Shown here one piece after another: positions 26,883 through 29,800 of a stretch of DNA of 64,000 nt. Each line of letters starts with the position of its first letter. Position 1 is the first letter of the stretch. Origin of the DNA: Escherichia coli (GTDB taxonomy: Bacteria > Pseudomonadota > Gammaproteobacteria > Enterobacterales > Enterobacteriaceae); assembly GCF_048403405.1 (NCBI RefSeq), contig NZ_CP183129.1, one strand, 5' to 3'. Made by a program: the position numbers.

Positions 26883-29800
26883 TGATGAGGGACGTATTTG
26901 TATTAGTCGCGACTTGATCTGACACATGGCCTTGAAAGGTTGAGAGTTACCGGTTTTGATATGAGTGTCGAATCCTTATCCAAAACAAGAGGTAACTCTC
27001 ATGCTTCATACTGCCAATCCCGTCATCAAACACAAAGCCGGTTTGCTCAATCTGGCTGAAGAACTCAGCAACGTATCAAAAGCCTGTAAAATCATGGGCG
27101 TTTCGCGTGAAACGTTTTATCGTTACCGCGAACTGGCCGCTGAAGGCGGTGTGGATGCGCAGATTAATCGTAGTCGCCGCGCTCCTAACCTTAAGAACCG
27201 TACCGATGAGGCAACTGAACAGGCTGTTGTTGATTACACCGTCGCTTTCCCGACACATGGTCAGCACCGGGCCAGCAACGAGCTGCGTAAACAGGGGGTT
27301 TTTATCTCCGACAGTGGTGTCCGTTCTGTCTGGTTACTCCATAACCTTGAGAATCTCAAAAGACGATACTGAACAAATTTTATCAGGTGACGTTCCGTAA
27401 AAAGTTGTATGGAGTTCTCGATGCAGTCGGCGCGACTATCAGTACCCCCGCTGAACCCTGGACTATCGGGCCGCCGTACTGGGGCATGTCACCCTGGCGT
27501 GCCGCTGGTTTTCCGCTAATGGTTTATTTCCTCTTTCTTTCCCGGCGAGAATTTATTTTAATCCGGAAGGATTATTTATTTTCAGATAGGGACTCACATT
27601 AAACACGAAACATTTTAATTAATGCATGGCTGAATATGTATTACACAATGTCAGATATCGTAAAAGACCAGTGCAATTCTATGTAAACTCTCTGACTGTT
27701 CATTTTATTTGTTGTTTCAGGGTCGGAACTCACCCTCAATAAACAACTGAATACGAGTAGATATTCATCGTCTGAGCTATATGGCTTTACACAATAGCCG
27801 ACATGTCTTTTCTCAGTCAGGGATTTTACTTTTCCTCACTACGAAGTTGACGACTTCGATATGGGATAGACTCTTAATTCAAGCAATTACTCTGCACAAG
27901 CATCAGGCAATCCAGCTCCAATATTTGTTATAAAATAATGCGCAACATTAATTTCACCAACAAAAAAAAGGTTTACGCTATCCCCTTGCCCTGGTATTTT
28001 ACCATATTTACACCACACTTCTTTTGTATCTGGATCATTCTCTGATACGATTTTCGCCACTTGTTCCCTGGCCCTCACCGTCAATGTTTTCTTAAACCTC
28101 CCCCCATCATCGATTGTTAGGGAAAAATAAGAAAAAAAATAATCATCTTCTACATTTGTGGATATTGATATATCCACCGCTACATGCGGAAAAAAATCTG
28201 GGAGCCATGTAAAAACCCCATCACTTTCTGGTATTGCCATATAGTTTATGTAATGCTTACTTACAAGAGATTCATCTTTGTGTAAATAAAGATAAGTAGT
28301 CACGCATAAAAAAACAACGATTATAATAGCAAAAATAAATATTACCATCTTTGAGATGTTACTTGAGATAGCCAGCATCTTGTAAAGCCTTTATCGTTTT
28401 TTTATGCTCTGGATTAATATAATTAATACATCTATTTGAGCAATCTTGTGTTAATGGACATGTCAACCCATGTTCATTTACAGCCAAGTCTTTTTTATTA
28501 TCTTCAATCATCTCAGAATGGGATAACTTTACTTTTCTGCCGTACATACCGAACATATTTAACCCGTAATCTCTAATCTCTTTTTCATAACCCAGCCCTT
28601 TCGCTGATCGGCTAACACCAGCGTCATTTAATTTAGACACTCGACAAAATGCCATACAATGGAAAAATTGATCAGTCCCACCTAAATTTAATCTCTTCAT
28701 ATCATCATAAGTATCAGATAATATATCCCATGCTCTTTGATGGTTTAGTTGTTCTTTTTTTCGCATTAACGCTACATCTGCAGGACTTAACCCTAATGGA
28801 TCAATACCATTCACCGGATTCAGCGGATACGCATACAGACTCCATCCCCCCGCCAGCCCAATCGGGTCCTGAGTAATATATCGTCCCAGCAACGGATTGT
28901 AGTACCGGTTCCGGTTATAATACAGCCCTGACTCCTCATCGTGTTGCTGCCCTGGCAGACGGTACGGCTGGTGCAGGTGATGCGGGTTTTCCTCATTCAG
29001 CAGGTTTCCCCACTCATCATACTCCCCGCTCCACGCCGTATTGCCGTCTTCGCTGATGAGCGCCAGCGGCAGCCCCCGGTGGTCACAGTGATAAAGATGA
29101 ATTTTTCGCTCAGGTAAATAAACCGGCTCTATCTGTGTCGCCAGCCGCTCCACCGTCAGCCCGCACTGTGCCAGCCACTGGCGGCTTTCACTGCTCACGC
29201 GGTCTGCCCGGATTTCCCCCTCCAGCCTGTCCAGCAGCCGCACCAGTTCAGCCGGGAACACCACGCCGTGTCCGTCCTCGCTCCCTTCCTGCTGGAGCTT
29301 CTCCGCCAGGCTCCGCCGCTGCGTTTTCTCCCGCTCGCCGTTGTCTGTTTCGATGCGGATGAGCGGTGTGAAGCTTCCCGGCTCGTATACCGTCTGGATA
29401 CGTGTGCTGTCGGTCTGCACCGTCGTCAGGTGGTCGCCGTCCCAGCCGTACCACGTCACCTCCGGTTTACGCGACAGCGACATCCACCCCGTCAGGTCAC
29501 GCTCCCGCCGCCATACCCGTTTCGCCATTCGCCGTCCCAGCGGGTCGTAGAGGTAGCGGCTCTCGACCAGTGGCTCGCCATGCTGTATCCGCGTGTAGAA
29601 CTCCAGGCGGTGCTGGCTGTCGTAGTGGTAGTGGTGGGTCCGCTCGTCGTCCGTCCGTATCACACCCGCCGGGATGCGGTCCGTCTTCTCCGTCAGCCTG
29701 CCGTATTCATCGTGGCGGTAGACATAGTGCGCATCCTCCGCGATGCGGTTATCCGGCCACGCCGTGAGTGTACTGTCCGGGTGCAGCTCCGGGTCCTGCA

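What the first reader, a model, noticed from the sequence alone, without database searches (positions are those of the whole stretch)
27387..27532. Orphan Rhs 5' end fragment next to an IS-transposase fragment
The minus strand at 27418-27532 is a close nucleotide match to the first ~100 nt of the rhsD coding sequence at 32460-32561, but with ATG changed to ATT and an early stop. Orphan Rhs modules are normally C-terminal tips; a duplicated 5' end points to a past recombination or inversion between rhs copies, possibly mediated by the adjacent IS fragment. It also supplies ~100 bp of direct-repeat homology about 5 kb from the rhsD start that could drive deletion of the whole rhs-immunity unit.
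Basis: seen in the sequence. Interest (0 to 1): 0.4.

Follow-up and report, generated by a model that had tools for sequence, protein, structure and literature searches.

The report
Known dead rhs gene start (ylbI)
The 95-base stretch is the already-catalogued E. coli pseudogene ylbI, the dead first 32 codons of a second, long-lost Rhs toxin gene fused to a broken insertion sequence; it is an ordinary genomic scar, not a new feature.

Summary
Window 27426-27520 (minus strand) matches the first 95 nt of the resident rhs gene (32467-32561, minus) at 75/95 = 79%, ungapped, E 6e-18. ATT replaces ATG, and a stop follows after 45 codons.

It is not new. It is 100% identical to the annotated K-12 pseudogene ylbI (b4632), next to ylbG. 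About 2,786 of 5,426 complete E. coli genomes carry it.

It is not a copy of the resident 5' end. Of 21 differences, 17 are at third codon positions, the upstream DNA is unrelated, and it is 74-84% identical to every E. coli rhs lineage tested. It is therefore a relic of a separate rhs gene that was once under selection.

Its 3' end abuts an IS481-family element. That element keeps its left inverted repeat, has an internal deletion of about 460 bp, and has lost its right end. The two meet at a shared AGTCGG, which fits an illegitimate deletion.

The two repeats are direct, so no inversion is involved.

The whole block 26893-32983 is an accessory island, absent in Nissle 1917. Interest is low.

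The parts
27426..27520 (-). ylbI: relic of the first 32 codons of an rhs gene (PAAR-like N-terminus). ATT start at 27518-27520. 64% G+C.
   Evidence: 79% identical to the resident rhs 5' end, E 6e-18. 100% identical to K-12 ylbI b4632. 17 of 21 differences at third codon positions. Weak PAAR_motif match, E 1.9e-4, below the Pfam cut-off.
27383..27425 (-). Tail of the ylbI reading frame. This is IS481-derived DNA read in antisense, ending at TGA 27383-27385.
   Evidence: Window 27357-27425 matches the C-terminal coding part of an IS481-family transposase (L005 2569-2501) at 84%. Frame read.
26899..27431 (+). Decayed IS481-family element (ylbG). Left inverted repeat TGTATTAGTCGCGACTTGATCTGACA starts at 26899. 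N-terminal HTH ORF at 26965-27372. Internal deletion of about 460 bp near 27357-27365. Right end (about 200 bp including the right inverted repeat) is missing. The AGTCGG at 27426-27431 is shared with the rhs relic.
   Evidence: Alignments to plasmid copies L004 and L005. Inverted repeats and junctions read. PGAP annotations as IS481 family transposase and ylbG. Pfam HTH_29, E 5e-19.
27521..27886 (-). A+T-rich spacer upstream of ylbI. SD-like AGAGGA at 27529-27534. 183-bp conserved piece at 27569-27751. Published sigma-70 SELEX promoter motif TCGTCA-19-TAAAAT at 27823-27853.
   Evidence: Sequence. The 183-bp piece is 85% identical to DNA in the rhsE locus of strain 142. Motif found and listed for the ybbD>ylbI spacer in PMC3946193.
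27887..28378 (-). Putative immunity gene, 163 aa, the intact counterpart of the K-12 pseudogene ybbD.
   Evidence: ORF. 94.9% identical to K-12 ybbD DNA. Annotated 'YbbD family protein' in one genome. No Pfam hit.
28359..32561 (-). Resident full-length rhs gene, 1400 aa, rhsD-type core with a ylbH-type C-terminal tip. Its first 95 nt (32467-32561) are the partner of the repeat.
   Evidence: ORF. Pfam DUF6531, 13 RHS_repeat stretches and RHS. Core 94.9% identical to K-12 rhsD and tip collinear with K-12 ylbH.
26893..32983 (.). Limits of the accessory RhsD island between selU (mnmH) and ybbP.
   Evidence: Nissle 1917 has selU, about 140 bp, then ybbP. Homology to the window stops at 26892 and resumes at 32984. 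Strain 1EC187 has a dinQ-like gene there instead.

Best explanation
The fragment is the pseudogene ylbI. It is the non-functional 5' stump (32 codons, the PAAR-like N-terminus) of a second rhs gene of a distinct lineage. That gene once lay downstream of the present rhs-immunity pair, in the same orientation, within the selU-ybbP accessory island.

The rest of that gene was lost in a deletion. One end point lies in rhs codon 31-32. The other lies about 200 bp before the right end of a convergently oriented IS481-family element (now ylbG). The joint shows a 6-bp microhomology (AGTCGG). The IS later, or earlier, lost about 460 bp internally, and the relic's start codon is ATT.

The scar was fixed before the island spread through E. 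coli and has been inherited essentially unchanged since. It does nothing today.

Shown: identity with ylbI, the divergence pattern, the junction anatomy, the island limits, and the distribution across genomes. Inferred: that a full-length gene once sat at this spot, the order of events, and the lack of function.
For: 1. ylbI is 100% identical and syntenic to K-12 ylbI/ylbG. The same junction occurs in about 2,786 of 5,426 genomes, including K-12, BL21, W, O157:H7, O55:H7 and O111:H8.
2. Of 21 differences from the resident rhs 5' end, 17 are third-position. There are no indels and only 4 amino-acid changes. Identity is 74-79% to rhsA, B, C, D and the rhsE-locus genes, and the upstream 40 nt are unrelated.
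3. The closest intact lineage found is 83-84% identical. It is an rhs on a tRNA-Asn island present in about 200 genomes.
4. The IS keeps its left inverted repeat at 26899, has an internal deletion, and its homology stops inside the transposase gene at 27425-27431, exactly where rhs homology starts. The right inverted repeat is absent, and AGTCGG is shared at the joint.
5. ATT is present in all five copies inspected.
6. Nothing in Rfam reaches threshold.
Against: - No genome or metagenome contig was found with an intermediate state, such as a longer ylbI, an intact second rhs at this site, or an intact IS481 here. A full-length ancestor at this exact site is therefore inferred, not observed.
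- The fragment covers only the PAAR-like N-terminus, so assignment to an Rhs protein rather than another PAAR protein rests on 28/32 residue identity to E. coli Rhs N-termini.
- An SD-like AGAGGA is intact 8 nt upstream. Published SELEX and ChIP data place RNA polymerase and FNR binding in or near the spacer in K-12, so residual transcription cannot be excluded.
Confidence: 0.85

Rival explanations
1. The stump never existed as a full gene in E. coli. It arrived already truncated, as the distal edge of a horizontally acquired tip/immunity segment (ylbH-ybbD plus downstream DNA) or of the whole island, copied from a donor in which another rhs gene followed the immunity gene.
For: The block ylbG-ylbI-spacer is 99.2-100% identical between this strain and K-12, while the adjacent core gene selU differs by 2.3%. 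This suggests the island is younger than, or moves independently of, its flanks. No close parent lineage exists in 5,426 E. coli genomes. Part of the spacer is a mobile piece also found in the rhsE locus.
Against: No donor arrangement was found in 100,044 species representatives with the ylbI-specific peptide pattern, nor in metagenomes. The IS/rhs joint is a deletion scar whichever genome it formed in, so this differs from the best explanation only in where the event happened.
Confidence: 0.25
2. One reading: the fragment is a duplicated copy of the resident rhsD 5' end, made by recombination or inversion between rhs copies and mediated by the adjacent IS.
For: There is significant similarity to the resident 5' end, and an IS fragment abuts it.
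Against: Identity is only 79%, while the resident 5' ends of different strains are identical to each other. The differences are 81% third-position, as between long-separated functional genes. ylbI is no closer to rhsD than to the other rhs lineages. There is no upstream homology. Both copies have the same orientation, so there was no inversion. The IS is itself truncated at the joint, so the joint was not made by transposition.
Confidence: 0.04
3. The relic is retained because it does something. For example, it could be translated from ATT or the internal ATG (27487) into a 34-45 aa PAAR-like peptide, act as a promoter/leader, or serve as a homology anchor for capture or loss of rhs cassettes.
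For: An SD-like sequence is intact 8 nt upstream. RNA polymerase holoenzyme SELEX and FNR ChIP signals are assigned to the ybbD-ylbI spacer in K-12. There are no polymorphisms in 95 nt among the copies inspected.
Against: The conservation equals that of the equally dead IS fragment and the spacer (99.2-99.4%), so it needs no selection. The predicted recombinant is absent from 5,426 genomes. Strains lose or interrupt the region freely: IS3 and IS1 insertions occur, and B2 strains lack it entirely. The peptide tail is antisense IS sequence. The motif scan found no promoter-like site in 27300-28000.
Confidence: 0.04
4. The similarity arises by chance.
For: None.
Against: E 6e-18, in frame from the start codon, 28/32 residues identical.
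Confidence: 0

Closest known systems
E. coli K-12 pseudogene ylbI (b4632) with its neighbour ylbG (b0502), in the RhsD element
   Same: Identical 95-96 nt sequence. Same neighbours (selU, ylbG, ylbI, 366-bp spacer, ybbD). Same ATT and the same IS junction.
   Different: Nothing differs in the fragment itself. Upstream, K-12 carries an extra rhsD tip plus ybbC, so ylbH/ybbD are orphans there. In this window the ylbH-type tip is still fused to the full-length rhs, and the ybbD-type gene is intact.
Orphan (dissociated) rhs C-terminal tip/immunity modules produced by C-terminal displacement (Jackson et al. 2009, PMC2935791)
   Same: Both are rhs gene debris lying downstream of a full-length rhs gene in the same orientation.
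   Different: Orphan tips keep the 3' core end plus toxin tip plus immunity gene, and are nearly identical to the upstream core. ylbI is the opposite end of the gene, only 79% like the upstream gene, has no tip or immunity partner, and was made by deletion against an IS rather than by displacement.
IS481-family insertion sequences
   Same: The left inverted repeat and the N-terminal HTH part of the transposase are 91-97% identical to plasmid-borne copies annotated as IS481 family.
   Different: This is only a remnant: internal deletion, no catalytic domain, no right inverted repeat, so it cannot transpose.

Membership tests
K-12 ylbI pseudogene (b4632) | Sequence identity to NC_000913.3 529497-529592 | tested here: met
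   95/95 identical.
K-12 ylbI pseudogene (b4632) | Synteny: between ybbD and ylbG, next to selU | tested here: met
Rhs protein gene (functional member) | N-terminal PAAR-like sequence shared with enterobacterial Rhs | tested here: met
   28/32 residues identical to E. coli Rhs N-termini. PAAR_motif E 1.9e-4, below the Pfam cut-off.
Rhs protein gene (functional member) | YD/RHS-repeat core and RHS hyperconserved domain | tested here: not met
   Homology ends at codon 32. No rhs-like DNA follows.
Rhs protein gene (functional member) | Intact start codon and open reading frame | tested here: not met
   ATT in place of ATG. Stop after 45 codons, in IS-derived sequence.
Orphan rhs-CT/immunity module | 3' core fragment with the hyperconserved motif, a variable toxin tip and a downstream immunity gene | tested here: not met
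   The fragment is the 5' end of the gene, and what follows it is an IS remnant.
IS481 family element (for the neighbour ylbG) | Terminal inverted repeats at both ends | tested here: not met
   The left inverted repeat is present at 26899. The right inverted repeat, seen in reference copy L005, is absent from the window.
IS481 family element (for the neighbour ylbG) | Complete DDE transposase | tested here: not met
   Only the 135-aa HTH N-terminus plus a 69-bp C-terminal scrap remain.

The most novel reading that the evidence does not exclude
The stump is not inert. With its intact Shine-Dalgarno-like sequence and an upstream spacer that binds RNA polymerase and FNR in K-12, it could be expressed as a short PAAR-like peptide. 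Alternatively, it could serve as a diverged homology anchor that occasionally lets incoming rhs genes integrate, or the resident cassette excise, for example in mismatch-repair-deficient cells.
Probability: 0.03. Interest if true: 0.4.

Novelty: already known. Interest (0 to 1): 0.08.

Why it matters
It matters little. The fragment is an annotated pseudogene of the best-studied bacterium.

The modest added value is a clearer reading of the scar:
- It records a second, now-extinct rhs lineage in the RhsD island.
- It records a microhomology deletion against an IS481-family element.
- It shows that the 95-bp repeat has not driven loss of the rhs cassette in thousands of sequenced genomes.

It also illustrates that this strain keeps, in active form, the toxin tip and immunity gene that are orphan pseudogenes (ylbH/ybbD) in K-12.

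Tried and rejected
- My first alignment used opposite strands and gave nonsense. It was redone in the same orientation.
- I searched for the parent lineage three ways. A genome-contig scan for DNA encoding [12 protein letters not shown] gave one hit, an E. coli-like contig mis-binned in an Alistipes MAG. A metagenome scan for an ATG-start version of the ylbI RBS and start gave nothing. A metagenome scan for a ylbI-type 17-mer continuing into intact rhs gave 9 contigs, all from one E. coli rhs lineage at 83-84% identity, and this result is biased by the required 17-mer. No close parent was found.
- I tested the predicted deletion recombinant with a chimeric query and found none.
- The Rfam scan of the island gave only sub-threshold hits.
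- The promoter motif scan of 27300-28000 found no sites.
- A literature search for ylbI returned only table entries, with no dedicated description.
- I considered whether the IS had inserted into the rhs gene, which would place an IS end at the joint. I rejected this because the joint lies inside the transposase gene.

Full report
**Observation**

The minus strand of window 27426-27520 aligns without gaps to the first 95 nt of the 1400-codon rhs gene at 28359-32561, that is, to 32467-32561 on the minus strand. Identity is 75/95 (79%), E 6e-18, and this is the only non-self hit in the 64-kb window. Both copies are on the minus strand, so they form a direct repeat. The fragment starts with ATT (27518-27520) where the gene has ATG. 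It reads [32 protein letters not shown], then 13 unrelated codons, then TGA at 27383-27385.

**Identity**

The locus is the E. coli RhsD region in reverse orientation: allR, allA, allS, selU, ylbG, the fragment, a 366-bp spacer, a 163-aa ORF, rhs, ybbP. In K-12 MG1655 the same 96 nt are annotated as pseudogene ylbI (b4632, 529497-529592), beside ylbG (b0502). The window and K-12 are identical over the fragment. PGAP annotates it in other strains as 'hypothetical protein, incomplete, missing C-terminus'.

A 187-nt query spanning both sides of the fragment is found at 80% coverage or more in 2,786 of 5,426 complete E. coli genomes. These include K-12, BL21, W, O157:H7, O55:H7 and O111:H8. ATT is present in all five copies I read.

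**Not a copy of the resident gene**

Over codons 1-32, ylbI differs from the resident rhs at 21 sites. The K-12 rhsD 5' end is identical to the resident one and gives the same count. Seventeen of the differences are third-codon positions, there are no indels, and only four change an amino acid, one of them being the start codon. Identity to K-12 rhsA, rhsB, rhsC and two rhsE-locus genes is 74-79%. The 40 nt upstream are unrelated to any of them, apart from a short SD-proximal resemblance to one rhsE-locus copy.

This is the pattern of two genes that diverged while both were under purifying selection. The Pfam PAAR_motif model matches the peptide weakly, at E 1.9e-4 and below the cut-off.

The search for the parent lineage gave the following:
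- No other species among 100,044 representative genomes encodes [12 protein letters not shown]. The single hit is an E. coli-like contig in an Alistipes MAG.
- No metagenome contig has an ATG version of the ylbI start region.
- The closest intact genes found are 79-80/95 (83-84%) identical. They belong to an E. coli rhs carried on a tRNA-Asn island in about 200 genomes. This result is biased by the 17-mer I required.

**The junction**

To the left lies an IS481-family remnant. Its left inverted repeat TGTATTAGTCGCGACTTGATCTGACA starts at 26899, six bases after homology with island-free genomes ends. The HTH part of its transposase is ORF 26965-27372, which is ylbG.

Relative to plasmid copies annotated as IS481 family transposase, the remnant has two defects. 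Window 27122-27365 and 27357-27425 match segments about 460 bp apart, so there is an internal deletion. Homology then stops about 200 bp short of the right inverted repeat, which the reference copy has and the window lacks.

Rhs homology begins exactly there. The hexamer AGTCGG (27426-27431) is present both in the IS reference and in the rhs reading (codons 31-32, CCG ACT). The transposase gene and ylbI converge.

The simplest reading is one illegitimate, microhomology-guided deletion. It removed the IS right end, anything in between, and the old rhs gene from codon 33 onward, including its tip and immunity gene. A separate event deleted the internal IS segment. The order of these events, and whether they happened in E. 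coli or in a donor, is inferred and not shown.

**Island context**

Nissle 1917 has selU and ybbP about 140 bp apart. Homology with the window ends at 26892 and resumes at 32984, so 26893-32983 is an accessory block that replaces a REP-containing spacer. Strain 1EC187 has a dinQ-like gene there instead.

Compared with K-12, the window lacks the rhsD tip and ybbC. Its rhs core runs directly into the tip that is the orphan ylbH in K-12, and the following ORF 27887-28378 is an intact version of pseudogene ybbD. The two alignments overlap by 252 bp of repeated core, 28816-29067. This fits the C-terminal displacement model of Jackson et al. (PMC2935791). ylbI is not that kind of debris.

**The deletion idea**

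A chimeric query representing recombination between the two 95-bp repeats finds no genome, out of 5,426, in which the two halves are adjacent. The longest perfect run shared by the repeats is 17 bp. From established knowledge, that is below the roughly 23-27 bp needed for efficient RecA-dependent exchange in E. coli, and 21% divergence further suppresses recombination. Loss of the rhs cassette does occur, but by other routes. For example, in strain MB30 an IS1 replaces rhs and its immunity gene while ylbI and ylbG stay.

**Function**

I found nothing to suggest one. Between the window and K-12, ylbI (100%), the IS remnant (99.4%) and the spacer (99.2%) are about equally conserved, and all more so than the neighbouring core gene selU (97.7%). 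This fits a young or mobile island rather than selection on ylbI. IS3 insertions split ylbI from ylbG in some strains. Rfam gives nothing above threshold.

There are two caveats. An SD-like AGAGGA sits 8 nt upstream of ATT. Published K-12 data also assign an RNA polymerase SELEX site to this spacer (motif TCGTCA-19-TAAAAT, present at 27823-27853) and an FNR ChIP peak to ylbI.

**Verdict**

The feature is an already annotated pseudogene, best explained as the deletion scar of a lost, divergent rhs gene fused to a decayed IS481-family element. Novelty: already known. Interest is low.

Noticed in passing
window 27887-32561 (minus): This strain's full-length rhs carries the toxin tip that is the orphan pseudogene ylbH in K-12, followed by an intact 163-aa version of K-12 pseudogene ybbD. 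The window equals K-12 minus the rhsD tip and ybbC, with a 252-bp repeated core segment (28816-29067) at the breakpoint. This is either the pre-displacement state or a recombinational loss of the newer tip.
   Followed up: partly
window 27569-27751: A 183-bp piece of the spacer upstream of ylbI is 85% identical to DNA in the rhsE locus of E. coli strain 142. There it lies just downstream of an unrelated orphan immunity-like gene and next to an ISEc1 (H-repeat) copy. It appears to be a small recurring module of Rhs elements, of unknown role.
   Followed up: partly
window 26893-32983 versus flanks: The selU-ybbP intergenic site has at least three occupancy states among E. coli: a REP-containing spacer of about 130 bp (Nissle 1917), a dinQ-like type I toxin gene (1EC187), and the 6.1-kb Rhs island. 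The island block ylbG-ylbI-spacer is 99.2-100% identical to K-12, while adjacent selU is only 97.7%.
   Followed up: partly
window 27823-27853 (minus): The exact motif TCGTCA-19-TAAAAT, listed by Shimada et al. 2014 (PMC3946193) as a constitutive sigma-70 promoter in the K-12 ybbD>ylbI spacer, is present here. Grainger et al. (PMC1802558) list an FNR ChIP target named ylbI. The generic promoter scan did not flag it.
   Followed up: partly
window 26827-26998 (minus): A sub-threshold Rfam match to psRNA2 (30.9 bits against a gathering score of 65, E 1e-4) spans the selU 3' end and the IS481 left end.
   Followed up: no
L017 (CASFSC010000074.1, 'uncultured Alistipes sp.' MAG): This 3,995-bp contig of a Bacteroidota MAG is 96.5% identical to window 26252-29067 (selU, ylbG, ylbI, ybbD, ylbH). 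It is Escherichia DNA mis-binned into the MAG.
   Followed up: yes
L028 8688-13261 (E. coli NCTC9080): An rhs gene plus an NTF2-fold immunity gene sit on an integrase-bearing island beside tRNA-Asn near nac/cbl, in about 200 of 5,426 genomes. Its first 66 nt are the closest match found to ylbI (62/66).
   Followed up: partly
L009 (strain MB30) and L010/L027: There is secondary IS traffic in the island. IS1 replaces the rhs and immunity genes in MB30 while ylbI and ylbG stay. IS3 sits between ylbI and ylbG in strain 2018-02-2CC, and replaces ylbI and ybbD in isolate 48.
   Followed up: yes
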